Positions 2,524 through 14,917 are shown, numbered from the stretch's first letter. The stretch: 64,000 nucleotides of DNA from Bdellovibrionota bacterium (GCA_041739995.1 JBGSMV010000059.1:32001-96000), one strand, 5' to 3'. The notes: generated from the letters alone by a model not told the origin. Numbers and translations are program-made.

Positions 2524-3038
2524 ATGCGCGCAGTGGAGCAGGTAAACACGGGGCGAAAGATAGAAATTTCAGCAAGTGCCCATTTGGGAAACTTTGTGCT
2601 TGGCGCCGTCGACGGCACAGTAGCTACTTTCGCCATAGTTGCGGGAGCGCATATCGATCAGGGGGTTCGAGTGGCTCTCATTCTTGGAGTCGCAAACTAT
2701 TGGCCGACGGTTTCAGTATGGGCTCCAGCAATTTTCTTAAGTCCAAGTCCAATGAGGCTATGAACGGTGGAGCAGTCTTGCTAAGCGCACCGGCCGGGTC
2801 TGTCAGCGTCGAGGCGTGGCATGCGGCGATCGGTACCTTTATCGCTTTTATCGCGGTGGGCATGCTTCCTCTCCTACCTTTTGCCATTTCCGTTATGTGG
2901 GGAGGCGAAGGTTACGGGAATATGGAGGCGCTCCACACGCTGTCCTTGATTAGCGCAGCAATTACCTTCGCCTGCTTCGTCGGCACAGGGGCGCCTGCAT
3001 ACCTCTTTGGGCATGCTCATTCGGCGCTCGTTCAGTAG
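2524..3038 (+). pseudogene. Frameshifted VIT1/CCC1-family Fe/Mn transporter
   Basis: ORF 2524-2763 reads LGNFVLGAVDGTVATFAIVAG...LILGVAN. ORF 2700-3038 continues LADGFSMGSSNFL...TFIAFIAVGMLPLLPF in another frame. Adding one base near 2697 restores GVANLLADGFSM. Confidence 0.75.
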
Positions 3039-3064
3039 TGACCAGCGACTCGGGAGCGCGAAAT

Positions 3065-5686
3065 CTATGCGGCTTCGGCTTCCGTCCGAGCACTGGCCTG
3101 AACCGAAAGCTCGCCATCCTTTAACTCAATGGTCACCAGAGAGTGATCTGCGAGTTCTCCCGAAATTATCTGTCTTCCAATTTTAGTCTCGAGCTCACGC
3201 TGTATGAAGCGCTTGAGCGGTCTGGCGCCATATACCGGGTCGTAACCTGATGTCGCGATAAACTCCTTGGCCTTCAGTGTAATCTCTAGAGCGATGTGCC
3301 TGTCCTTAAGACGTTGGCGAACTTCGTCCAAGAGTAGCTCAACAATCGAAGAAATCTCCGAAATACTCAGTGGCTTAAACAGCACGATATCATCAACGCG
3401 ATTTAAGAATTCGGGTCTAAAGTGCTGGCGCAACTCGCCCATTACCTTATTTCTCGCGCTCTCTGATATTTGCCCTTGAGCATCAATTCCCTCGAGCAAA
3501 TGCGGCGATCCTATATTTGAGGTCAATATGATGACCGTATTTTTGAAATCTACTGTTCTTCCCTGGGAATCAGTGACACGTCCATCATCGAGAATCTGCA
3601 AAAGAACGTTAAAAACGTCATGATGAGCTTTCTCAATCTCATCGAAAAGCACTACTGAGTAGGGCTTTCTACGAATTTCTTCGGTCAGCTGTCCGCCCTC
3701 TTCGTAGCCTACATATCCAGGAGGCGCTCCAATCAAGCGTGACACGGCATGGCGCTCCATGTATTCGCTCATGTCAATGCGTACAAGGTTGTCCTCTGAG
3801 TCGAACAAGGTAGCTGCCAAGGTGCGGGCAAGTTCGGTTTTCCCTACCCCGGTTGGCCCAAGAAACAAAAACGACCCTATCGGGCGTTTGGGGTCCTTAA
3901 TCCCCGCGCGCGCTCTGATTACTGCGTCCGCTACTAGCTGCACTGCTTCATCTTGGCCAATCACGCGCTGATGAAGTACTTCATCGAGCTTCAGTAGCTT
4001 CTCTCGCTCTCCTTCGACTAATCGCGCTACTGGAATTCCGGTCCAACGAGAAACAATCTCTCCGATCTCCTCTTCGGTAACTTGCTCACGCAACATGCGG
4101 TCCGCGCCCGCCACTTTGCCTTCGAGGTCACGCAATTCGGTCTGAAGGGTCGGAAGTGCGCCGTGTCTCAGTTCCGCTGCGCGGTTAAGGTCGTAATCTC
4201 TCTCGGCTTTAGCCATGGCGAGCTTCGTTTGTTCTATGCGCTCGCGGATCGCTTGCACTTTGTGAATGGACTGCTTCTCGGCGTCCCAACGTGCACGCAT
4301 GGTCTGGGAGTTGTTCTTCAGACCTACAAGCTCCTTGCGAAGCTCTTCGAGGCGCTTGAAACTCCCCTCGTCGTCTTCTTTCTTAAGCGCTGCTTCTTCA
4401 ATCTCTAATTGCATTACCCGTCTGGTAACTTCATCAAGTTCGGTTGGCATGGAATCAATTTCAGTGCGAACAGTCGCACAGGCTTCGTCCATCAGGTCGA
4501 TGGCCTTATCAGGAAGAAATCGGTCAGAAATATAGCGATGCGAAAGATTTGCTGCCGCCACAAGCGCACCGTCCAGAATCCGCACTCCGTGATGCACCTC
4601 AAAGCGTTCTTTAATTCCTCTTAGAATCGAGATGGTATCTTCGACGTCTGGTTGTTCGACTAGTACCGTCTGGAATCGCCGCTCAAGAGCGGCGTCCTTC
4701 TCAATATGTTTTCGATACTCATCTAAGGTAGTGGCACCAATGCAATGCAGCTCTCCACGGGCAAGCATGGGTTTGAGCATATTGCCGGCGTCCATCGAGC
4801 CCTCGGCCTTTCCGGCACCCACAATAGTATGCAGCTCATCAATGAACAGAATAATGCGTCCATCTGCATTTTTGATTTCTTGCAGCACTGCCTTAAGACG
4901 CTCTTCAAACTCTCCTCTGTATTTTGCCCCGGCGACAAGCGAGCCCATATCAAGTGCAAAGATGGTTTTGTTCTTGAGCCCCTCTGGAACGTCTCCGCGG
5001 ACGATACGTTGCGCGAGACCTTCAACAATGGCGGTCTTGCCTACGCCTGGTTCGCCGATAAGAACTGGGTTGTTCTTGGTCTTTCGAGACAAGATGCGTA
5101 TGACACGACGAATCTCGCCGTCACGACCAATCACCGGATCAATTTTTCCGAGCTTGGCCTGTTCAACAAGGTCACGACCGTAGCGCTCAAGCGCTTCATA
5201 AGTAGCTTCCGGATTAGCGCTTTGTACGCGTTGGTTGCCTCGAACGGCAGTAAGCCCTTTCAGGAATTTGTCTCGACTGAGTTTATGACCAGTAAAGAGC
5301 TTTCCAAGCGGCGAGGTTACTGGCTCTTCCAGCATGGCCAGTACTAGATGCTCGACTGAAACGTACTCGTCTTTGAGGCGCTTTGCTTCCTCATCAGCCT
5401 TCACCAGCATGCGGTTGAGTCGCTGGCTGAGATATATCTTTCCGGCTTCAGATCCGGGGCCAGAGACGCTGGGGCGTTGTTCGAGCAAACGTTGGACGTC
5501 GGCACCTAAGGCAGCACCATCAACATCAAGCTTTTCAAGCATGCGGCCAATGAGGCCGTCGGATTGTTCGCAAAGGGCAAGCAGCACGTGCTCTGCGTCA
5601 ACTTCCTGGTGCCCAAAACGGACAGCGAGTTGTTGACCGCTGCTAATCGCCTCTTGGGACTTCTGAGTAAGCTTATTTATATCCAT
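3065..5686 (-). CDS. clpB: ATP-dependent chaperone ClpB
   Basis: Two AAA modules ([16 protein letters not shown]), [12 protein letters not shown], coiled-coil middle domain, 873 aa. Confidence 0.97.
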
Positions 5687-5699
5687 GCATATCAGTTAA

Positions 5700-6737
5700 T
5701 CACTGAGCACGAGGATTAAAAGGGGAAATTTCTGACAGTTTTACGTAAAGTTCTCGCTCCGGGGCGCTGACCTCAGCTGGAGTGACAATCAGGACCTGTG
5801 CATAGGCGTCGCCACGCTCCGTGTCGCTCTTTGGAAGCCCTCGGCCACGTAATCGAAGACGTTGACCGGTTCTTGCTCCCGCTGGAACTTGAAGCTTAAC
5901 GGCCCCGTCAGGCAACTCCAGCTCTACTTCACCACCGAGCACAGCCTCCCAAGGGGAAACCTTTAGGGTAGCGATAAGATCGAAGTCTTTTAGCTTCAAT
6001 TCAGGTGTGTCTCTAAGCTGGATGCGAATCAAAACATCCGTGCCGCTGGGGCCTTGGCCCTTTAACCGAATGACAGAGCCATTCTTGGTACCGGGACGGA
6101 GCTTTACTTCGTACTGCTTTTTCTCTCGCTGCTGTGAGCCATCAGGCTGAGTAGTGACTAGTTCAAGTGAAATCGATTTTGATTGACGTCGCAGCAGGTC
6201 GAGAATGCTTACTTCGAGAGGAAGCGGATCTTGCGCGGGGGCCTTAGGTGCTCTTGATTGGCGAGTCCTTCCCGCATGCTGGGCGCCGGCACCAAAGGGA
6301 GACCCCGCACCAAATGGGCCAGCAGCTTGGGCTCTGGACTGCGCAGATTGTCGTCCCCTGCTGGACTGACTGCCGAATTCACTTCCAAACACGGCACCGA
6401 AGAAATCGCTAAAATCAAACCCCGAATCTCCTCCCGAGGAGAATTCGAAGCCTCCGCCGCCTTGGTTTTTGAACTGACTAAAATCGAAGCCTGGAGGTGG
6501 TTTGAATTCCTGACCTGACTGCCAGTTCGCGCCCAGGGCATCATAGCGCTTGCGCTTCTCAGGGTCGCCAATGACCTCGTTCGCTTCATTCACCAGTTTG
6601 AACCTATCTTCAGCCCCCGCTTCCTTATTCACGTCAGGGTGGTACTTGCGCGCAAGTTTCCGGAACGCACGCTGAATATCGTCCTGTGAGGCCGTTCGAG
6701 ATACTCCTAGTGCTTCGTAGTAGTCTTGGTACTTCAT
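5700..6737 (-). CDS. cbpA: DnaJ class II chaperone (CbpA-like)
   Basis: J domain with HPD, G/F-rich linker, no zinc fingers, C-terminal PWEAVLG motif, directly upstream of clpB. Confidence 0.88.
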   Translation of the reverse strand: MKYQDYYEALGVSRTASQDDIQRAFRKLARKYHPDVNKEAGAEDRFKLVNEANEVIGDPEKRKRYDALGANWQSGQEFKPPPGFDFSQFKNQGGGGFEFSSGGDSGFDFSDFFGAVFGSEFGSQSSRGRQSAQSRAQAAGPFGAGSPFGAGAQHAGRTRQSRAPKAPAQDPLPLEVSILDLLRRQSKSISLELVTTQPDGSQQREKKQYEVKLRPGTKNGSVIRLKGQGPSGTDVLIRIQLRDTPELKLKDFDLIATLKVSPWEAVLGGEVELELPDGAVKLQVPAGARTGQRLRLRGRGLPKSDTERGDAYAQVLIVTPAEVSAPERELYVKLSEISPFNPRAQ

Positions 6738-6967
6738 AGTTCAGTGGCAAATTTGCCTAATCATTAAGTAACCACTGGCGGGGCATTTATAAAGGGGTTT
6801 AGACCATTGGCAGGTTTCTACTACTCCTCAAAATCATGCGAGATTACTTACTGTTAGCTCGATAGCGAAGCATCCTAGTCGTTCAGGTGCTGACTGGGAA
6901 GCGTTGGGATCATATGAAGGGCTGGGTACCTAAGAAAAACGAAAAAAAGAAACATTAACGCGCAACC

Positions 6968-7219
6968 GTGATAGTTCCGCTACGGTTCGTCTCCCTTTGG
7001 GAAGTCACCAGTCTTGCGCCAACCCAGTGGTTTCTATCGAGGAGTCCGCCCTATCCCGAGATGTATAGTGATGCCGTTGTCGGCGATAGCGGTAACCGCC
7101 TGTTCACTTTGGTTAACGGCGAGCTAGTGCTCATGATGACGTTCTTCTCCAATGGCGGTGGCCCGCTATACACTTCAAAAACTCGGACGGCCTTCTCACG
7201 GAAGCGATCGATAATCTAG
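6968..7219 (+). pseudogene. Possible C-terminal remnant of a trypsin-like serine protease
   Basis: 83-aa ORF containing VVGDSGNRLFTLVNGELVL, resembling the GDSG nucleophile region. No upstream catalytic half visible. Confidence 0.3.
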
Positions 7220-7494
7220 GCTGGCGCTAGGCTCTCGTTGCCTTCGTTCAAGGCTAGAAATCGTCGTCTTCTCCACGACCACAGCGGTCAAAGCGCGCCC
7301 CCCCCCAGCCCTAGGGCCCGGAGATTCGTCTCACACAGGCAGGCGATTAGACGGGGTGTGTGACTTAATGCCGCCAGCGAAACCGACCCAAACCTCGACA
7401 GGCGGTACTTGGCATAAAGCGACTCGGGGCATCCGTGACACCCTCGAATGGAGCAACAGCGCCCAGGATAGAGCGAAAATAATCGATTCCTCCC

Positions 7495-8295
7495 ATGGCA
7501 AACCTCATCTATTTTAAGCATATGGGCATCGTAGTGCTTCTCATCATTGCCGTCGGTGTGGCGTTCATGGTTCTCGAACGAATCTTCCCCGACCAAGAGC
7601 TCGCGGAAGTGCCTGGGTGGTGGCTGCGGGTGATCTTCCTGAATGTACTTCAACTTGGGGTGGTATTTCTCGGCGGCGTTAGTTGGGAACACTGGTTCGT
7701 CGGATACTCCGCACTCTCGCTCAATGAGCTCTCAATCCTCGTGCAGATACCGATCGCGTACCTGCTGATCACTTTCGTCTTTTATTTTTGGCATAGAGCC
7801 CGGCACGATATCAACGTCCTCTGGCTTAGCTGTCATCAGTTGCACCACAGCCCTAGCCGGATAGAGACGATCACCTCTTTTTACAAACATCCGGTTGAAT
7901 TAATCGCGAACGGAATCATTATCTCCTTTCTTAACTTCGCAGTCTTGGGAATTACCGTTGAGGCGGGAGTTTGGACAACTTTTGTAACTGCGGTCGCTGA
8001 GTTTTTCTATCATATGAATATTCGCACGCCGCACTGGGTCGGATATTTTTTGCAGCGACCAGAGATGCATCGCATCCATCATGAACGTGACAAACACTAC
8101 TACAATTTTGCCGATCTTCCGGTGTGGGACATGATATTCGGCACCTATCGGAATCCACCGCACTTTGCAGGACCATGTGGGTTCAAGCCAGGGCGAGAAG
8201 AGTCGTTTTGGAGGATGCTTTCGTTTCTAAATGTGAATAACCCCTTTTCCGGAAAAAGCGGAATGAGAACCGGGAAAAAGCGGAGCGAGAAGTAG
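7495..8295 (+). CDS. Sterol desaturase / fatty acid hydroxylase superfamily membrane protein
   Basis: His boxes HRARH, HQLHH, YHMN and HRIHH, several TM helices, NFADLPVWDMIFGT motif. Start may be ATG 7522. Confidence 0.9.
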   Translation: MANLIYFKHMGIVVLLIIAVGVAFMVLERIFPDQELAEVPGWWLRVIFLNVLQLGVVFLGGVSWEHWFVGYSALSLNELSILVQIPIAYLLITFVFYFWHRARHDINVLWLSCHQLHHSPSRIETITSFYKHPVELIANGIIISFLNFAVLGITVEAGVWTTFVTAVAEFFYHMNIRTPHWVGYFLQRPEMHRIHHERDKHYYNFADLPVWDMIFGTYRNPPHFAGPCGFKPGREESFWRMLSFLNVNNPFSGKSGMRTGKKRSEK

Positions 8296-8296
8296 A

Positions 8297-8827
8297 ATGT
8301 CCGCCTTCAGAAATCAATTTCTGGTGATTCTAGTGCTCGCTATCGGGAGTCTCCAGCTCGTTGGATATTTAACGGGGGTCGAATCCGTCCGGAAAATCGG
8401 GCAGCTCACTGCCGCGTCTCCTCTACCTTTAGTATTCTCGCACTTTAGAGAGTTGGAAACGTTCTCGCCCAAATTCTCTGTCCTCTTAGGAACTGATGGT
8501 ACTAGAGAAGCGTCGGAAGTTATTTCGATTACTCCGCAAAATTACAGCTTGCTTGCCGGTCCATATAATCGAAGAAACGTCTACGGTGTGGCATTCGCCT
8601 ACGGGGCCGTGCTGCAACAAGAGCAAGAACGAGCGCTTGTTCAAAGTGTGCTGTGCTATGGATTTAGAGACGGCGGACCCGTGCGTCGAATTATTGAACA
8701 AGCCAATATAGAGCGCGCTGGTAAGAAGACCTCCCCGTTCGCACCAGGGACACCGTTGGGCATTCGGATTGACCCAAAGAACAAGCCTACTCAGATGGTT
8801 GAACTTTGGCCGGAGTGCTTGCCATGA
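8297..8827 (+). CDS. Hypothetical protein with N-terminal hydrophobic helix
   Basis: 176 aa, begins 1 nt after the desaturase stop, overlaps the next gene by ATGA. Motif-like segments AASPLPLVFS and GPYNRRNVYG. Confidence 0.75.
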   Translation: MSAFRNQFLVILVLAIGSLQLVGYLTGVESVRKIGQLTAASPLPLVFSHFRELETFSPKFSVLLGTDGTREASEVISITPQNYSLLAGPYNRRNVYGVAFAYGAVLQQEQERALVQSVLCYGFRDGGPVRRIIEQANIERAGKKTSPFAPGTPLGIRIDPKNKPTQMVELWPECLP

Positions 8828-10041
8828 GCGAATTGCACTTAAAGACATTTCGAATCGTGCTCGGCATATATTTGTTGGTTCATTTCTTGATGTTGACTCC
8901 CTATGCAGGGGAGCTGTTCTCGGATTCGGGAATTTTTGCCGATCCTAGCTTGCTCCCTTCTTACGGATTCTTCCCCAATCCGCTATTTAGTTTTGGAACC
9001 GAGCTTTTCGCGCAGCTATTTCTGGTTGGTTTGGCACTGCTGAGTGCGCTGCTCGTTGCTGGTATGCGAACTCGGGTTGTTGCTTTGGCGCTCTGGTTCG
9101 GGTGGGCGGCGCTTTTGTCTCGCGCCCCATTTATAGCGAATCCAAGCATCCCATTTGTCGGATTACTTTTACTCGGACTTGCAGCGCTTCCAAGCGATTG
9201 GTCCAGCACGCAAGCCCGGAGTGCCTCAATGTTGTTGTGGCGGGGCGTCTGGGTTCTTCTTGCGGTTTCCTACTCAGTAAGTGGAGTTCATAAGCTAGGG
9301 AGCCCGAGTTGGGTCGATGGAAGTGCGCTGGCTGAACTCACTCAGAATCCATTGGCGCGGGATTATTTTATTACCAGCTTTCTCGCTTCTTCACCACTTT
9401 GGATGACCGGTCTTATGACGTGGGGATCCTTGGCGCTTGAAATTCTGTTTGCGCCACTTGCGCTCTTTTCTCGGATTAGGCCCTGGGTTTGGCTCGCGAT
9501 GGTGGGGATGCATTTGGGAATTCTCGCGGTGGTTAGCTTTGCTGACCTCACGGCAGGAATGCTTTTGGTGCATCTATTTGTCTTTGATGGGCGCTGGATT
9601 TCAGCAGGAAGCGATAAGGCACACGGCAAAGCAAAGGGATTAGCAGAGATCGTCTTTTTCGACGGGTCTTGTGTCATGTGTAATAGATTCGCGAGAACGC
9701 TGATCTCTGTTGACCATACCGGTCTCCTAAAATTCGCCGCCCTTGATAGTGCCACTTTCAATGCCGCCCTACCGCCGGAGAAGCGTGCGCAACTTCCTGA
9801 CTCAATTCTCGTGAAATCAACTGACGGCTCTATGCTCGAGCGCAGTGACGCTATCATCGCCATCGGTACAACACTGGGGGGCGGACTCGGGCTAGGCGCC
9901 ATGTTGTTGCGCTTGATACCACGCAGAGTTCGAGATTCTGGATACGATCTAGTGGCTAAGTTGCGCTATCGAATGTTTGGGCGCACTGCAGAGAGCTGTG
10001 CTCTTATTCCAAAGGAGTGTCGCTCGCGTATTCTGCCCTGA
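8824..10041 (+). CDS. HTTM-like membrane protein fused to DCC1-like (DUF393) thiol-disulfide oxidoreductase domain
   Basis: N-terminal FRIVLG, YSVSGVHKLGSPSWVDG and GMHLGI motifs. C-terminal FFDGSCVMCNRF...RDSGYDLVAKLRYRMFG. ATG 8824 overlaps the upstream TGA. Confidence 0.82.
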   Translation: MSELHLKTFRIVLGIYLLVHFLMLTPYAGELFSDSGIFADPSLLPSYGFFPNPLFSFGTELFAQLFLVGLALLSALLVAGMRTRVVALALWFGWAALLSRAPFIANPSIPFVGLLLLGLAALPSDWSSTQARSASMLLWRGVWVLLAVSYSVSGVHKLGSPSWVDGSALAELTQNPLARDYFITSFLASSPLWMTGLMTWGSLALEILFAPLALFSRIRPWVWLAMVGMHLGILAVVSFADLTAGMLLVHLFVFDGRWISAGSDKAHGKAKGLAEIVFFDGSCVMCNRFARTLISVDHTGLLKFAALDSATFNAALPPEKRAQLPDSILVKSTDGSMLERSDAIIAIGTTLGGGLGLGAMLLRLIPRRVRDSGYDLVAKLRYRMFGRTAESCALIPKECRSRILP

Positions 10042-10401
10042 GGCATTCTTGCCGCACCCCGCTAGGCCACAGCGTCCTTTTGGGAGGGTCCTTTTGGGTG
10101 GGCATCCACCAAGAGCAACGCATGGTCTCTGCGGCTGCGTTTAGCGCGCATCATCTCTGGCTCCTGCAGCACTTTCGTAGCCTCTTACCCCATGCCCTCG
10201 GCCAAATTCGTAGACCCTCCCAGTTTTACGCACTAGCCGCTGATGCTTATACCACCCTCATCCGTGCTTAAAATATTGAATTATGATTGTGAACGAGGGG
10301 CTCACCAGTGTCTCACTGGAGCAGCGGCTGCCCCACTTCAGACTAGTACCTAGAATGTTCTACGTCGAAGTAGGTTCTCGCTCGAAACGGAGTTATATTT
10401 T

Positions 10402-10710
10402 ATGAAATTTAAGGTTGCGATTCTCACCCTGGTTTTAGCCTCTTTACCAACTCTTTCTCACGCAATTTCTAAAGGTGATGGGGACATATATCTTGGATGC
10501 GGTGGTCGAGACCTACTGGAGTTTTATAGCTGTTTTTGTTCCGAAATGACTGACCGTGCGGAAATAGTTTGCCAAATTTCACCGCCCCCTCCACCAGGCT
10601 CTATCTTGCCTAACCTATGTCGCGCCGCCAGAGAACAGGCGGAAGGCGTATGTTGGTTGTTCGGAATAGAGAAACCTAAAACAGATGTCCCAGATAAGAC
10701 GAACAAGTAA
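10402..10710 (+). CDS. Small secreted Cys-rich hypothetical protein
   Basis: GGAG RBS, signal peptide MKFKVAILTLVLASLPTLSHA, six Cys in the mature part, poly-Pro run. Confidence 0.7.
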   Translation: MKFKVAILTLVLASLPTLSHAISKGDGDIYLGCGGRDLLEFYSCFCSEMTDRAEIVCQISPPPPPGSILPNLCRAAREQAEGVCWLFGIEKPKTDVPDKTNK

Positions 10711-10887: not shown

Positions 10888-11949
10888 CTACAGCTCAATT
10901 AGATCTTTAAGTGCGGAGAGGCGGTGAAAATCATCCGCGGCTTTCTCGCGTGCCTCCGCCGCTGCGGAGATCCTATCACCTAGCTCTGCCTTTACAGAGT
11001 TAAGCGCTTCACTTGGGCTGGCATGCTCTACTGTTCGCAGTAAGACGGTAGCTCGAAAGTACTCGTCGCTTGAATATCCCATGCGAGCACTCATTGTGAG
11101 CTCAGCCTGTCGATACAGTGCTGACAACACTCCCGGCGAAACACCGGTGAGCTGAGTATCGTTAATCGATCCTTTAATAGAACTCAGATCTGCCTCAGAG
11201 AACGAATCAAAATCTAACCGCAAAGAATCTACAGTGCCGCTGTCGGGAGAATTGCGTTCTATAATATTAGCAATTTCCAAAACCGCACCACGCAACTCCG
11301 GGGTCATTAGAACTACATGCTTACTGGACAAGGGCTGTTCTGGGGCTGGAGAGAGGCTGCGATAGAGTTCTCGGTTCTCCTTACCAATTGTTGAAAGGCA
11401 AGAATACGTATCCCTTAACACTTTTAGGTGTTGAGATAGTTCTCGTTCGCTTGGGCTATTAGTTGGATCTAAAATTCCTAACCGTTTGTTCAACTCTGCA
11501 CTCTCTTGCACTAGAAAGTATGCACTTGAGACCTTGTTCAAATAGTTGCCTGCATCTAAAAGGGCTTTCTGATTAGCTCTTAAAATAACCACCACCTCTT
11601 CGTCTCTCAGAGGCTGCCCATCAGACCCTAAATTTTGTCGCTCTACTACATTGTTCAAATTATCGAGGAACCGAGTAGTCTCTTGCGCTGATAGCTCATT
11701 GAACTGGCGAAACCTTGCCAATTCCTGTCGCGGACCTGCAACGCGTTCGATAAGCTCTTTGTGAAATCTAAGACTCTCAGAAAGTAGGTGTGCCACCCTT
11801 TTGGTATCGATACCCGCAGCATTAGGTGCGCGATCTAAAATGCGTGATTGCTGATTATCCGTCAGCGATGATTCCAAGCGCGGCATAGTTGCAGAGCTCA
11901 GTAGAGTGGCAGCGGAAGCAGCTATTACTTTAAGATGTGGATTCATCAA
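10888..11949 (-). CDS. Hypothetical protein (likely helical)
   Basis: 353-aa ORF with no competing frame and no recognisable motif. Confidence 0.6.
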   Translation of the reverse strand: MMNPHLKVIAASAATLLSSATMPRLESSLTDNQQSRILDRAPNAAGIDTKRVAHLLSESLRFHKELIERVAGPRQELARFRQFNELSAQETTRFLDNLNNVVERQNLGSDGQPLRDEEVVVILRANQKALLDAGNYLNKVSSAYFLVQESAELNKRLGILDPTNSPSERELSQHLKVLRDTYSCLSTIGKENRELYRSLSPAPEQPLSSKHVVLMTPELRGAVLEIANIIERNSPDSGTVDSLRLDFDSFSEADLSSIKGSINDTQLTGVSPGVLSALYRQAELTMSARMGYSSDEYFRATVLLRTVEHASPSEALNSVKAELGDRISAAAEAREKAADDFHRLSALKDLIEL

Positions 11950-13708: not shown

Positions 13709-14917
13709 TTAGAAGCGTTCGATATCTGCGCCACCGTCAAAGGCGCCCATTCCGGCAGCCATTACGAGCGCGTCTCTGCCGTAGGCGAAGAATCGGTCGA
13801 GACGATGGTCTCCTGGCTCAACGCGAGGAATCTCGAAGTAGCCGCCGCGCTGCCACGAGAATTGCCTCGCCTTCGGATAGAAGGCGTAGGACCGCTCCAC
13901 TACCTGGCCAAACTGGTCGGTGATTCGCAGGGTGAATATCCCGCGTCCGTCCTTTTGATTTCGTCGACTATAGCGGAAGGTGCGAATACCCTCGGAGTCC
14001 GCTCGACCGGGAATAACTCGGTCTAGGCGAATGCCATTTTGATAAATCTCGATTTGGCGCACTTCTCGACCAACCACATAGCCAGAAAATCCTACTAGCA
14101 CTCGAGCGCTGCCTTCTTCGACAAAGCGACGTCCGCGCGTTGGTGAGCGAAATACACTTACGCGGGTCAATGCCAAGTTCGGGCTGAATACTTTTGGTAC
14201 GTCAGCGATCCCCACTCCGCGCTGGGCGTCAAGCACTGGACCAAGGCTAAGAGTAACGAAGCGATTGTAGAATTCGCGGTCCACGCCCTCTTGCTCCATG
14301 CTCCGAACAACAGCCAATCGGGTGTAGTCAACGTAGCGAACCGCCTCGACTGGCTGCATGACTTTCTCAGCGCCATTACGAACTACCCGTAAGGAACTAG
14401 CAAAGCTAAGCAAGGCGAAGCGAGAGGCAGCTGCTCGGGGCGGAAGTTGCTTGGCGATGAGTGCTGCTTCATTCTCGGCCTGCTGCATCTGTGAGGTGCT
14501 TGCGCTTGAGCGCAATGTATCCCAGGAGAGCTTCGGAATACCGTCGCGACTTTCTACCTTGCCCGGTGTTTTGGGCATGGTCTGAACGACCTTTTTCGCA
14601 CGGACTTGTTCAATGTAACCTGGATTCAACATGGCGGAGACTTCGTCCAGCGGATTCATCCCCAGCAGCGAGGTTGAGCGCTCTTCTTGGTCGGTAGCCC
14701 TAGAATCTTGAGACAAGCCTGAATTAAGGGCTGCCAGATCTTGCTGCGCCTTATGAACTTGACTGCCGACTACGTGGTCGACGGAGAGTGTCTTCTGAAA
14801 GTTTACGAGCTCAGGAATGAAGAAGAGTGCGAGCACGAGCAAGAGCACCACGCCAGTAACGATGAACCCTTTGGGGTTAAGGCCCGATTTTCCAAGTGAA
14901 CGAATGGAGGAAACCAC
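13709..14917 (-). CDS. Hypothetical membrane-anchored protein
   Basis: 402 aa, single N-terminal TM helix, beta-rich (possibly Ig-like) C-terminus. Confidence 0.7.
   Translation of the reverse strand: MVSSIRSLGKSGLNPKGFIVTGVVLLLVLALFFIPELVNFQKTLSVDHVVGSQVHKAQQDLAALNSGLSQDSRATDQEERSTSLLGMNPLDEVSAMLNPGYIEQVRAKKVVQTMPKTPGKVESRDGIPKLSWDTLRSSASTSQMQQAENEAALIAKQLPPRAAASRFALLSFASSLRVVRNGAEKVMQPVEAVRYVDYTRLAVVRSMEQEGVDREFYNRFVTLSLGPVLDAQRGVGIADVPKVFSPNLALTRVSVFRSPTRGRRFVEEGSARVLVGFSGYVVGREVRQIEIYQNGIRLDRVIPGRADSEGIRTFRYSRRNQKDGRGIFTLRITDQFGQVVERSYAFYPKARQFSWQRGGYFEIPRVEPGDHRLDRFFAYGRDALVMAAGMGAFDGGADIERF

What the first reader, a model, noticed from the sequence alone, without database searches (positions are those of the whole stretch)
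7495..10041. Coupled operon: di-iron hydroxylase + small protein + gamma-carboxylase-like HTTM protein fused to a CxxC redox domain
Seen: three genes joined by a 1-nt gap and an ATGA overlap. Gene 3 has YSVSGVHKLGSPSWVDG and GMHLGI, then DGSCVMC. Known: HTTM is the membrane domain shared with vitamin K-dependent gamma-glutamyl carboxylase, whose catalytic Lys lies in a similar AGVKKLDADWVEG motif, and with Bacillus SdpB, which works with the small partner SdpA. DCC1/DUF393 is a thioredoxin-like fold. Inference: genes 2 and 3 may form a split, quinol-dependent membrane enzyme with a built-in thiol relay, acting with the His-box hydroxylase/desaturase to modify a lipid, quinone or exported peptide. 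I know of no characterised pathway with this combination. It is the best candidate for a new system here.
Basis: partly seen in the sequence, partly recalled or inferred. Interest (0 to 1): 0.8.

Follow-up and report, generated by a model that had tools for sequence, protein, structure and literature searches.

The report
Bacterial vitamin-K-carboxylase-like membrane oxygenase trio
Three tightly joined genes encode what looks like one membrane enzyme, a cut-down relative of the blood-clotting vitamin K carboxylase with a small cap protein and an iron-dependent lipid oxygenase, a widespread but biochemically untested machine also seen in giant viruses.

Summary
In detail: g1 (7495-8295), g2 (8297-8827) and g3 (8824-10041) are joined by a 1-nt gap and an ATGA overlap. 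g1 is a His-box di-iron FA_hydroxylase. g2 is a single-pass protein of no Pfam family. g3 is a truncated GGCX-like membrane domain fused to a DCC1-like CxxC domain.

- Conservation: 65 of 80 related loci from many phyla keep g1-g2-g3. Natural fusions exist: 59 FAH-g2, 18 HTTM-FAH-g2, 1 g2-HTTM.
- The lysine: K157 maps to GGCX K218 through two chained alignments and is present in 150 of 150 relatives. E206 maps to D263 and W163 to W223. The carboxylation-site residues H160 and F299 are not kept.
- Binding: g2+g3 co-fold scores 0.88 against 0.00 for the best control.

Most likely this is one menaquinol/O2-dependent epoxidase-like unit coupled to a lipid oxygenase. It is the bacterial counterpart of the VKOR-epoxidase-desaturase module described in giant viruses in 2026, with DCC1 in place of VKOR. 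The g2 domain was also found in a giant-virus contig. The substrate and chemistry remain inferred. I class it as a new variant of a known kind. Other readers of this scan have met the two-gene core in other genomes.

The parts
7495..8295 (+). g1: His-box di-iron membrane oxygenase (FA_hydroxylase / 'sterol desaturase' superfamily), 266 aa
   Evidence: Pfam PF04116 3.1e-27, above its cut-off. Eleven His are present in 67 of 67 orthologues: H100, H104, H114, H117, H118, H132, H173, H192, H195, H196, H201. The NCBIfam OlsE equivalog scores far below its cut-off, 62.5 against 475.
7792..7848 (+). g1 His boxes 1 and 2 (H100-x3-H104; H114-x2-H117-H118)
   Evidence: Read from the sequence. All are present in 67 of 67 orthologues.
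8068..8082 (+). g1 His box 3 (H192-x2-H195-H196)
8176..8178 (+). g1 C228, a conserved Cys in the cytoplasmic C-terminal tail
   Evidence: At least 97% conserved among 67 g1 of DCC-type trios. In 6 DCC-less HTTM-g1 fusions it is Thr in 5 and Cys in 1. It is Ser in the viral copy.
8297..8827 (+). g2: single-pass membrane protein of no Pfam family, the predicted periplasmic cap of the g3 active site, 176 aa
   Evidence: No Pfam or NCBIfam hit. Of 70 family members, 0 hit SdpA or DUF5819. There are 68 homologues. AF2 model pLDDT is 82.4. The co-fold with g3 gives ipSAE 0.88 against 0.00 for the best control.
8300..8374 (+). g2 N-terminal transmembrane helix (residues 2-26)
   Evidence: Helix 2-26 in the model. 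It packs on g3 residues 113-146 in the co-fold.
8402..8443 (+). g2 motif ASPLPLVFSHF (residues 36-49; P42, V46, F47 invariant)
   Evidence: Alignment A2. Residues 36-49 are all in the predicted interface.
8558..8587 (+). g2 motif GPYNRRNVYG (residues 88-97; G88, Y90, R92, R93, N94, G97 invariant)
   Evidence: Alignment A2. These residues are in the predicted interface. All 11 invariant g2 residues lie in the 65-residue interface, hypergeometric P about 1e-5.
8824..10041 (+). g3: truncated GGCX-like (HTTM) membrane domain fused to a DCC1-like CxxC domain, 405 aa
   Evidence: Pfam. AF2 model pLDDT 90.9. Fold searches.
8824..9594 (+). g3 HTTM / vitamin-K-epoxidase-like domain (residues 1-257)
   Evidence: VIA-align to human GGCX: Z 16.5, rmsd 3.6 A, 236 residues aligned, model 1-257 to GGCX 59-315. 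The 16 best rows are all GGCX and the next unrelated row has Z 6.2. hhalign to a canonical bacterial HTTM gives probability 96.7%, E 4.3e-10.
9292..9294 (+). K157 codon (AAG), the counterpart of the GGCX catalytic base K218
   Evidence: Chained alignments. Lys in 150 of 150 family representatives. Part of the predicted g2 interface.
9439..9441 (+). E206 codon, the counterpart of GGCX D263
   Evidence: Chained alignments. Glu in 147 of 150. The giant-virus enzymes show the same D-to-E change (PMC13486548, passages).
9652..9984 (+). g3 DCC1-like thioredoxin-fold domain (residues 277-387), inferred to be cytoplasmic
   Evidence: Pfam PF04134 1.4e-18. Residues 272-357 align to Grx, NrdH and Trx at Z 3.5-4.0. 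D280, G281, C283, C286 and C392 are invariant in 24 sequences.
9670..9681 (+). CxxC (C283-V-M-C286)
   Evidence: Read from the sequence. Invariant in alignment A1.

Best explanation
The three genes encode the subunits of one inner-membrane enzyme. The N-terminal domain of g3 has about 8 helices and is a truncated relative of the vitamin K-dependent carboxylase. It keeps the half-site that deprotonates and oxygenates the quinol (K157, W163, E206) but lacks the lumenal domain and the residues used for Glu carboxylation. g2 inserts one helix beside g3 helices 4-5. Its periplasmic domain puts its invariant motifs over the K157 pocket and so completes the quinol site. g1 is a His-box di-iron oxygenase held next to this pair; in many organisms it is fused to g2, or to both g2 and g3. 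The proposed working model is as follows. Menaquinol is oxygenated with O2 at the periplasmic face, in a vitamin-K-epoxidase-type reaction. This is coupled to desaturation or hydroxylation of a membrane lipid at the cytoplasmic di-iron centre. The cytoplasmic DCC1-like CxxC domain supplies the thiol redox step that VKOR supplies in the viral and some bacterial versions. That step would be recycling of the oxidised quinone, or thiol exchange with g1 C228.

Shown here: gene structure, homologies, conserved residues, synteny, fusions and a predicted g2-g3 interface. Inferred: topology, every catalytic activity, the coupling, and the substrate, which is unknown.
For: Identity of the parts: Pfam. 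The g3 fold matches GGCX at Z 16.5, rmsd 3.6 A, 236 residues aligned; the 16 best rows are all GGCX and the next row has Z 6.2. The 15 best Foldseek rows are also all GGCX.

Active site: K157 = K218, W163 = W223, E206 = D263. In 150 relatives these are K 150, W 150 and E 147. The roles of the GGCX residues were taken from passages of PMC12647623 and PMC13486548.

g2-g3 binding: ipSAE 0.88 (runs 0.89, 0.88, 0.88) against a best control of 0.00. That mark was reached by 116 of 157 solved complexes and 2 of 215 mismatched pairs. The runs share at least 97% of their contacts and the partner pLDDT is at least 81. All 11 invariant g2 residues lie in the interface.

One functional unit: 65 of 80 loci are canonical g1-g2-g3, and 3 more plus L014 carry g1 elsewhere in the locus. 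No other neighbour is conserved; the next gene cluster is present in 8 of 80 loci. Of 78 longer proteins that carry a g2 domain, 59 are FAH-g2, 18 are HTTM-FAH-g2 and 1 is g2-HTTM-DCC.

Quinone link: one HTTM-VKOR fusion, P0256. A giant-virus contig has FAH-g2, a g3-like HTTM, VKOR and a START protein side by side. The window's own genome has menA above its cut-off and a VKOR-DsbA-type fusion elsewhere.

The His boxes are intact in 67 of 67 g1 orthologues.
Against: No activity has been measured for any member, bacterial or viral. By inference the two centres lie on opposite faces of the membrane, so the physical coupling is unexplained. g2-HTTM pairs also occur without g1: 4 of 80 loci, and L106-L109. 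They also occur with an Lnt-like acyltransferase instead (L094, L095, L105, P0270, P0275). The pair can therefore work without a di-iron partner. DCC1 is missing from 106 of 150 family representatives and is found in pairs that lack g1 (L108). Some carriers are labelled as anaerobes (Kuenenia L053, Omnitrophota L031), although both half-reactions need O2. The Pfam HTTM score is below its gathering cut-off, and profile searches of the g3 family against PDB sequences did not reach GGCX. The co-fold is the model's own confidence, not a measurement.
Confidence: 0.6

Rival explanations
1. The quinone itself is the product. g3 and g2 hold the naphthoquinol head group while g1 oxidises the polyprenyl tail or ring substituents. 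The result would be a modified menaquinone, such as an epoxy-, hydroxy- or differently saturated form, rather than a modified bulk lipid.
For: The g3 pocket residues are those that bind and deprotonate vitamin K in GGCX. From general knowledge, not tested here, FA_hydroxylase relatives commonly act on isoprenoid-derived lipids such as sterols and carotenoids. The listed carriers belong mostly to phyla that I recall as menaquinone users (the quinone types are recalled). The window's own genome has menA. Its second FA_hydroxylase gene lies about 8 kb from menA.
Against: The association with VKOR suggests the oxidised quinone is recycled as a cofactor and not kept as a product. Variants coupled to Lnt-like and patatin domains point to acyl lipids. 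No quinone analysis exists.
Confidence: 0.15
2. g3+g2 is still a true vitamin K-dependent carboxylase, or another strong-base C-H functionalising enzyme like GGCX or MloH. It would act on a peptide or a lipid head group, and g1 would tailor the same substrate in a two-step pathway.
For: The K-E-W triad that generates the strong base is intact. g2 could supply substrate-binding residues that the missing lumenal domain provides in GGCX. MloH shows that bacterial relatives carboxylate non-Glu substrates, as cited in passages of the bioRxiv preprint and of PMC12647623.
Against: GGCX H160 aligns to A105/N106 and no His lies nearby. The CO2-stacking F299 aligns to L242 (alignment confidence around residues 99-110 is low). 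No VKGC lumenal domain is present, and g2 shows no profile similarity to it (hhalign probability 0.3%). No substrate-like gene is conserved nearby.
Confidence: 0.12
3. g3+g2 is only an electron-input module. It deprotonates menaquinol and passes two electrons to the g1 di-iron centre, replacing cytochrome b5, and no epoxide is formed. The DCC1 CxxC and g1 C228 would be an alternative thiol route for the same electrons.
For: From general knowledge, bacteria lack the cytochrome b5 partner used by eukaryotic family members. The trio is tightly fused in many genomes. g1 C228 is kept in DCC-type trios and is Thr or Ser in 6 of 7 DCC-less copies.
Against: The Lys site and the His boxes are inferred to lie on opposite membrane faces, and no intermediate redox cofactor is evident. 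The pair occurs without g1 and with a non-redox Lnt-like partner. The C228 pattern rests on few, related sequences.
Confidence: 0.08
4. It is an SdpAB-like maturation system for an exported peptide: the HTTM protein plus a small partner process a secreted toxin or signal.
For: The HTTM-plus-small-partner layout recalls SdpB and SdpA (recalled, not tested). ESM Atlas feature hits for g2 include clusters in which 11% of members carry the SdpA Pfam family (a lead only).
Against: 0 of 70 g2-family proteins match SdpA or DUF5819. No peptide gene is conserved next to the trio. The constant partner is a lipid-type di-iron oxygenase.
Confidence: 0.04

Closest known systems
Giant-virus VKOR + gamma-carboxylase-like epoxidase (VKE) + sterol desaturase module (VKED). 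Collins et al., PNAS 2026, PMC13486548; abstract and passages read
   Same: Both have a truncated GGCX-like domain that keeps K218, with D263 changed to E and N290 changed to a hydrophobic residue (g3 K157, E206, I233). Both are adjacent or fused to a His-box 'sterol desaturase'. The Lys is on the outer face and the His boxes on the cytosolic face. A giant-virus contig encodes direct homologues of g1 (37% identity, E 1e-46), g2 (38%, E 6e-16) and g3 (37%, E 5e-51), next to VKOR.
   Different: The window's version is bacterial and has three separate genes. It carries a fused DCC1-like CxxC domain and no adjacent VKOR; the genome's VKOR-DsbA fusion is on another contig. It also has a distinct g2 subunit. 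[quoted passage not shown] In the viral contig seen here the g2 domain is the C-terminal part of the desaturase ORF. In that paper the function is a hypothesis; only the VKOR activity was reconstituted.
DUF5819 protein + HTTM-DCC1-like protein pair of Melghirimyces thermohalophilus, an AlphaFold 3 prediction. bioRxiv 10.64898/2026.08.19.745780; passages read
   Same: Both pair an HTTM + DCC1-like protein with an adjacent small protein that has an N-terminal TM helix and a domain of about 150 aa. Both are predicted with high confidence to assemble into a GGCX-like whole, with partner residues lining the vitamin K pocket.
   Different: g2 does not match the DUF5819 model: 0 of 70 members, and 0 of 124 genomes of the phylum, where the controls also gave nothing, so that test is inconclusive. 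The passages I read do not mention a di-iron oxygenase partner.
[quoted passage not shown]
   Same: The fold of residues 59-315 matches at Z 16.5. The catalytic Lys, its stacking Trp and the neighbouring acid are kept.
   Different: There is no lumenal domain. H160 and F299 are not kept. No propeptide-binding parts are present. The cap is a separate protein, and a DCC1 domain is added.
Canonical bacterial GGCX orthologues (HTTM + VKGC_lumenal_dom), e.g. the L082 ORF in the same phylum; MloH of malonomycin biosynthesis, as cited
   Same: They belong to the same superfamily. hhalign of the g3 family against the L082 ORF gives probability 96.7%.
   Different: Those proteins score 270 bits on Pfam HTTM, carry the lumenal domain, and hit human GGCX at E 5.7e-43. 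g3 scores 25.7 bits and has no lumenal domain.
Bacillus subtilis SdpA/SdpB
   Same: An HTTM membrane protein works with a small partner.
   Different: No detectable sequence match of g2 to SdpA. No SdpC-like gene is present. A di-iron oxygenase is present here.
FA_hydroxylase superfamily enzymes (e.g. ornithine lipid hydroxylase OlsE, sterol desaturases, carotene hydroxylases)
   Same: g1 matches the Pfam domain and has a complete His-box set.
   Different: g1 is not an OlsE equivalog: 62.5 bits against a cut-off of 475. Obligate linkage to a GGCX-like pair is not a known feature of the characterised members (from general knowledge).

Membership tests
HTTM / GGCX superfamily (g3 residues 1-257) | Match to Pfam HTTM (PF05090) at or above the gathering score | tested here: not met
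   25.7 bits against a cut-off of 27.7, E 1e-05. 26.6 bits in the genome search.
HTTM / GGCX superfamily (g3 residues 1-257) | GGCX transmembrane fold | tested here: met
   VIA Z 16.5, rmsd 3.6 A, 236 residues aligned. The 16 best rows are all GGCX and the next has Z 6.2. The Foldseek top 15 are all GGCX. hhalign to a canonical HTTM gives 96.7%.
HTTM / GGCX superfamily (g3 residues 1-257) | Catalytic base Lys (GGCX K218) with stacking Trp (W223) and adjacent acid (D263) | tested here: met
   K157, W163 and E206 by chained alignments. K in 150 of 150, W in 150 of 150, E in 147 of 150. A structural superposition at residue level was not available.
[quoted passage not shown] | Carboxylation-site residues N159/H160 and F299 | tested here: not met
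   H160 aligns to A105/N106, with no His in FIANPSIP. F299 aligns to L242 (residue roles from PMC12647623 passages). Alignment confidence is low around residues 99-110.
[quoted passage not shown] | VKGC lumenal domain (PF22777) | tested here: not met
   Absent from g3. g2 against a protein that carries it: hhalign probability 0.3%. It is present in the canonical L082 and L084 ORFs.
Giant-virus VKOR-VKE-desaturase module | Truncated GGCX-like epoxidase domain next to or fused with a His-box sterol-desaturase-family protein | tested here: met
   There is direct homology to the ORFs of a giant-virus contig.
Giant-virus VKOR-VKE-desaturase module | Adjacent VKOR gene | tested here: not met
   No VKOR in the operon. 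The genome's only VKOR match is a VKOR-Thioredoxin_4/DSBA fusion on contig C52. A DCC1-like domain is fused to g3 instead.
DUF5819 + HTTM-DCC1 pair | HTTM + DCC1-like architecture, with an adjacent small TM-anchored partner predicted to bind it | tested here: met
   (ipSAE 0.88 against a best control of 0.00).
DUF5819 + HTTM-DCC1 pair | The partner matches Pfam DUF5819 (PF19136) | tested here: not met
   0 of 70 g2-family proteins, scanned at E up to 10 or up to 1. ESM Atlas features give weak leads only, scores of 0.85.
FA_hydroxylase superfamily (g1) | Pfam PF04116 above its cut-off, and a complete set of His boxes | tested here: met
   96 bits against 31. 11 His are present in 67 of 67 orthologues.
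Ornithine lipid hydroxylase OlsE (g1) | NCBIfam equivalog score | tested here: not met
   62.5 bits against a cut-off of 475.
DCC1-like thiol-disulfide oxidoreductase (g3 residues 277-387) | Pfam PF04134 above its cut-off, and the D-x-x-C-x-x-C motif | tested here: met
   68.6 bits against 27.8. D280, C283 and C286 are invariant in 24 sequences. Thioredoxin-fold matches have Z 3.5-4.0. Redox activity was not tested.
SdpA/SdpB system | Partner matches SdpA (PF17418), and an SdpC-like substrate gene is present | tested here: not met
   0 of 70 match SdpA. No further conserved neighbour.

The most novel reading that the evidence does not exclude
The trio is a self-contained bacterial vitamin K cycle used for lipid C-H activation. 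g3+g2 would oxygenate menaquinol to the epoxide at the periplasmic face, and that energy or base would drive the g1 di-iron oxidation of a membrane lipid. The cytoplasmic DCC1-like CxxC domain would be a previously unrecognised thiol-driven quinone or quinone-epoxide reductase that stands in for VKOR. On this reading the split g2+g3 form is the ancestral state, from which single-chain GGCX arose by fusion of a cap domain and from which giant viruses took their module.
Probability: 0.15. Interest if true: 0.85.

Novelty: new variant of a known kind. Interest (0 to 1): 0.66.

Why it matters
GGCX chemistry, in which quinol oxygenation generates a very strong base, is so far known only for protein carboxylation and for one natural-product pathway. 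This work shows that a cut-down form of the enzyme is hard-wired to a di-iron lipid oxygenase, by operon and by gene fusion. It occurs in hundreds of bacterial species from many phyla and in giant viruses, and it always carries a third, unannotated cap subunit.

- It gives the 2026 giant-virus hypothesis, vitamin K epoxidation coupled to lipid desaturation, a bacterial system in which it can be tested genetically. One listed carrier, Haloferula chungangensis, is a cultured strain.
- It assigns a first structural role to a protein family that has no Pfam model (g2).
- It suggests a concrete job for the poorly understood DCC1/DUF393 domain.
- It bears on the question of what the carboxylase fold did before blood coagulation existed.

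Tried and rejected
- PDB sequence searches: profiles A1 and A3 of the g3 family, and g1 alone, found no GGCX or other relevant hit. The link to GGCX needed fold search and a bridge through a canonical bacterial HTTM.
- g2 fold: Foldseek found nothing at E <= 0.001. The wide VIA search aligned only the N-terminal helix, Z <= 4.8.
- g2 against the GGCX lumenal domain by hhalign: probability 0.3%.
- DUF5819 HMM over 124 genomes of the phylum: 0 matches, but the 14 control genomes also gave none, so this is inconclusive.
- Promoter and terminator scan of 6700-10500: 3 and 4 sites found, against 3.0 and 5.0 expected from shuffles, so uninformative.
- GC content of the trio (0.49-0.535) is like its surroundings (0.46-0.55), so there is no sign of recent transfer.
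- Sequencing runs: no RNA holder listed. Read laying was not used, so expression and co-transcription are untested.
- The search for related loci with A3 failed for lack of a conserved stretch. A1 was used instead.
- The mention of a DCC-family protein in PMC8743628 is only a row in a GWAS table and has no bearing here.
- MqnA (futalosine route) was not found in the window's own genome, which is 91% complete.
- Search for print coverage of a bacterial FA_hydroxylase + small protein + HTTM-DCC1 trio: searches found only the two 2026 papers cited. Subscription journals and bioRxiv supplements were not searchable.


Full report
**Observation.** Searches confirm three co-directional ORFs.
- g1 is 7495-8295 (266 aa).
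- One base follows, then g2 is 8297-8827 (176 aa).
- g3 runs from the ATG at 8824, which overlaps the g2 stop as ATGA, to 10041 (405 aa).

The quoted peptide strings are all present. The ATG start of g3 is supported by the database gene call and by 24 aligned homologues, rather than the upstream TTG that the ORF listing offers.

The flanking genes are unrelated. A DnaJ-type gene and a ClpB-like ORF lie on the opposite strand upstream. A Cupin_2 gene and ORFs of no family lie downstream. The GC content of the trio is like its surroundings.

**What the proteins are.**
- g1 matches Pfam FA_hydroxylase (3.1e-27). It keeps eleven His in 67 of 67 orthologues, including the three His boxes. It is not an OlsE equivalog: 62.5 bits against a cut-off of 475.
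- g2 has no Pfam or NCBIfam match. None of 70 family members matches SdpA or DUF5819. Its model (pLDDT 82.4) has an N-terminal helix at residues 2-26 followed by a mixed alpha/beta domain.
- g3 has a DCC1-like domain (1.4e-18, residues 277-387). Its HTTM match (25.7 bits) is just under Pfam's cut-off of 27.7.

**g3 is a truncated GGCX-like enzyme.** The AlphaFold2 model has pLDDT 90.9. The 15 best Foldseek matches are all human GGCX. VIA-align gives Z 16.5, rmsd 3.6 A over 236 residues, with model 1-257 aligned to GGCX 59-315. The 16 best rows are all GGCX and the next unrelated row has Z 6.2.

Sequence profiles of the g3 family do not reach GGCX in the PDB, so I built a bridge.
- A canonical bacterial orthologue from the same phylum (L082 ORF; HTTM 270 bits plus VKGC_lumenal_dom) hits human GGCX at E 5.7e-43. 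That alignment displays AGVKKLDADWVEG.
- hhalign of the g3 family against this protein gives probability 96.7%, E 4.3e-10.

Chaining the two alignments gives this mapping.

| g3 residue | GGCX residue |
|---|---|
| K157 | K218 |
| W163 | W223 |
| E206 | D263 |
| H230 | H287 |
| I233 | N290 |

Among 150 family representatives, K157 is Lys in 150, W163 is Trp in 150, and E206 is Glu in 147.

The passages I read of PMC12647623 give the roles of the GGCX residues. K218 is the base, W223 stacks on it and D263 lies next to it. N159, H160, Y395 and F299 form the Glu and CO2 site. In g3, H160 aligns to A105/N106, with no His nearby, and F299 aligns to L242. Alignment confidence is low in the first of these regions. 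The lumenal domain is absent. The quinol-activating half-site is therefore kept and the carboxylation half-site is not.

**g2 is the cap.** The co-fold of g3 and g2 scores ipSAE 0.88 (runs 0.89, 0.88, 0.88) against 0.00 for the best of three controls.
- That mark was reached by 116 of 157 solved complexes and 2 of 215 mismatched pairs.
- The runs share at least 97% of their contacts and the partner pLDDT is at least 81.
- The g2 helix packs on g3 residues 113-146.
- The two invariant g2 motifs (36-49 ASPLPLVFSHF; 88-97 GPYNRRNVYG) touch g3 H20, 156-157, 159-163 and 171-180.
- All 11 invariant g2 residues lie in the 65-residue interface, P about 1e-5.

No two-chain complex of this kind has been solved. 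However, GGCX itself may inform the model, so the pass shows likeness and plausibility, not binding.

**The three genes are one unit.** A scan of one genome per species found 323 loci that encode a g3 relative, and the best 80 were kept. They are labelled as Bdellovibrionota, Oligoflexales, Acidobacteriota, Planctomycetota, Verrucomicrobiota, Bacteroidota, Nitrospinota, Myxococcota, SAR324 and others. The 80 loci break down as follows.

| Arrangement | Loci |
|---|---|
| g1-g2-g3, same order and strand | 65 |
| All three, with g1 elsewhere in the locus | 3 |
| g1 downstream, contig too short upstream to see g2 (L014) | 1 |
| g2-g3 with no g1 | 4 |
| Contig too short to judge | 5 |
| g3 without g2 | 2 |

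g2 lies beside g3 in 76 of 78 evaluable loci. No other gene is conserved nearby; the next cluster is in 8 of 80 loci.

Gene fusions say the same.
- Of 78 longer proteins that contain a g2 domain, 59 are FAH-g2, 18 are HTTM-FAH-g2 and 1 is g2-HTTM-DCC.
- The fusions align colinearly with g1+g2.

Within the window's own phylum the g2 profile is found in 14 of 124 genomes, or 10 of 73 good ones. It is absent from the same-genus genome and from the three same-family genomes. It is therefore a patchy accessory module.

**Variants.** The HTTM part has 1027 cluster representatives at E <= 1e-3. Of the 150 listed, 44 carry DCC1 and 74 are short forms without it. Twenty long ones were scanned against Pfam, with these results.

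| Pfam result | Proteins |
|---|---|
| FA_hydroxylase | 7 |
| Lnt-type domains | 2 |
| VKOR | 1 |
| Peptidase_C92 | 1 |
| ARPP-1 | 1 |
| DCC1 | 2 |
| HTTM only | 2 |
| Weak CP12 match | 1 |
| Nothing | 3 |

In the phylum, g2-HTTM pairs also occur in other settings.
- Alone: L106, L107, L109.
- With DCC1 but without g1: L108.
- With an Lnt-like acyltransferase, either fused to g2 (L094, L095) or adjacent (L105).
- One protein is patatin-FAH-g2.

So g2+HTTM is the core, and its partners are lipid-handling enzymes.

**Giant viruses.** Five IMG/VR giant-virus contigs encode a g3-like HTTM (37% identity). In L096 it sits divergently next to a 398-aa ORF that is FA_hydroxylase plus a C-terminal g2-like domain. 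A VKOR gene and a START-domain gene follow.

**Literature.** Six searches found two relevant papers, both from August 2026.
[quoted passage not shown] That epoxidase retains K218, has D263 changed to E and N290 changed to I, and lacks residues 374-418. The paper proposes that vitamin K epoxidation is coupled to lipid desaturation. Only VKOR activity was reconstituted. The passages I saw mention no bacterial trio, no small subunit and no DCC1.
- The bioRxiv preprint 10.64898/2026.08.19.745780 (passages) predicts that a DUF5819 protein and an HTTM-DCC1 protein of a Firmicute assemble into a GGCX-like whole.

Its supplements were not readable. Two earlier notes of this scan describe the two-gene core in other genomes.

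**Mechanism: shown and inferred.** The parts, the residues, the synteny, the fusions and the predicted g2-g3 interface are shown. The rest is inferred.

Topology is inferred from helix positions, charge distribution and the fusion order.
- g3 is N-in with about 8 helices. K157 is at the outer end of helix 129-159, and DCC1 is in the cytoplasm.
- g2 is N-in with a periplasmic domain.
- The His boxes and tail of g1 are cytoplasmic, because g2 follows directly in the fusions.

From this I infer an O2-dependent menaquinol oxygenation at the outer face. It would be coupled in an unknown way to a di-iron oxidation of a lipid at the inner face. The genome has menA.

The VKOR fusion and the viral VKOR suggest that the oxidised quinone needs a thiol-driven recycling step. 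DCC1 may do this from the cytoplasmic side, or may exchange thiols with g1 C228. That Cys is kept in DCC-type trios and is Thr or Ser in 6 of 7 DCC-less copies. This is a lead that rests on few, related sequences.

Points against this model:
- The two centres are on opposite membrane faces.
- The pair occurs without g1.
- Some carriers are labelled as anaerobes.
- No biochemistry exists for any member.

**Verdict.** The locus is the bacterial, three-gene, DCC1-bearing variant of a module first described, as a hypothesis, in giant viruses in 2026. It is wider and more modular than published, and its third subunit is unannotated.

Noticed in passing
L096 (IMG/VR giant-virus MAG contig) 2675-6512; the same layout in L097-L100: The giant-virus locus holds four genes side by side. 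A 398-aa ORF combines FA_hydroxylase with a C-terminal g2-like domain. A divergent 249-aa ORF is a g3-like HTTM without DCC1. VKOR and a START lipid-binding protein follow. The viral 'sterol desaturase' therefore carries the cap domain.
   Followed up: partly
L094 2300-5151 (G058) and L095 1345-4078 (G121); L105 4296-7282 (G005): This is a second configuration of the core pair. In L094 and L095 an Lnt-like protein (LNT_N + CN_hydrolase) is fused at its C-terminus to a g2-like domain, and a short HTTM gene follows. In L105 the order is g2, short HTTM, then an Lnt-like gene. HTTM-Lnt fusion proteins P0270 and P0275 also exist.
   Followed up: partly
L082 1558-2796 and L084 850-2313: The same phylum also has canonical single-chain GGCX orthologues (HTTM of about 270 bits plus VKGC_lumenal_dom). 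The L082 ORF hits human GGCX at E 5.7e-43. The neighbouring ORF in L082 has weak CarboxypepD_reg-like matches.
   Followed up: partly
window 8176-8178 (g1 C228): This Cys is at least 97% conserved in 67 g1 of DCC1-bearing trios. In six DCC-less HTTM-g1 fusions it is Thr in 5 and Cys in 1, and it is Ser in the viral copy. A thiol link between DCC1 and g1 is possible, but the sequences are few and related.
   Followed up: partly
own genome G000:C79:98205-98606 and C79:106563-107405: The genome's second FA_hydroxylase gene lies about 8 kb from menA, the menaquinone prenyltransferase.
   Followed up: no
proteins P0256, P0336, P0201, P0207 (database representatives): Other fusions of the g3-type HTTM or the g2 domain were seen: HTTM-VKOR (P0256), patatin-FA_hydroxylase-g2 (P0336), HTTM-Peptidase_C92 (P0201) and HTTM-ARPP-1 (P0207).
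   Followed up: partly
own genome G000:C52:32874-33287 (L101 1474-2787): A 437-aa VKOR fused to a Thioredoxin_4/DSBA-like domain. This is the usual bacterial disulfide-forming arrangement and it is unlinked to the trio.
   Followed up: partly
window 10402-10710 (+), 10888-11949 (-), 13709-14917 (-): ORFs downstream of the trio have no Pfam match. The first is a 102-aa protein with a signal-like N-terminus, several Cys and a PPPPP run.
   Followed up: no
window 8615-8650 (g2 residues ~107-118): In most g2 homologues a Cys follows YGF (YGFC). In the window's protein that position is Arg and a Cys sits three residues earlier (VLCYGFR). The C-terminal Cys (C174) is kept.
   Followed up: no
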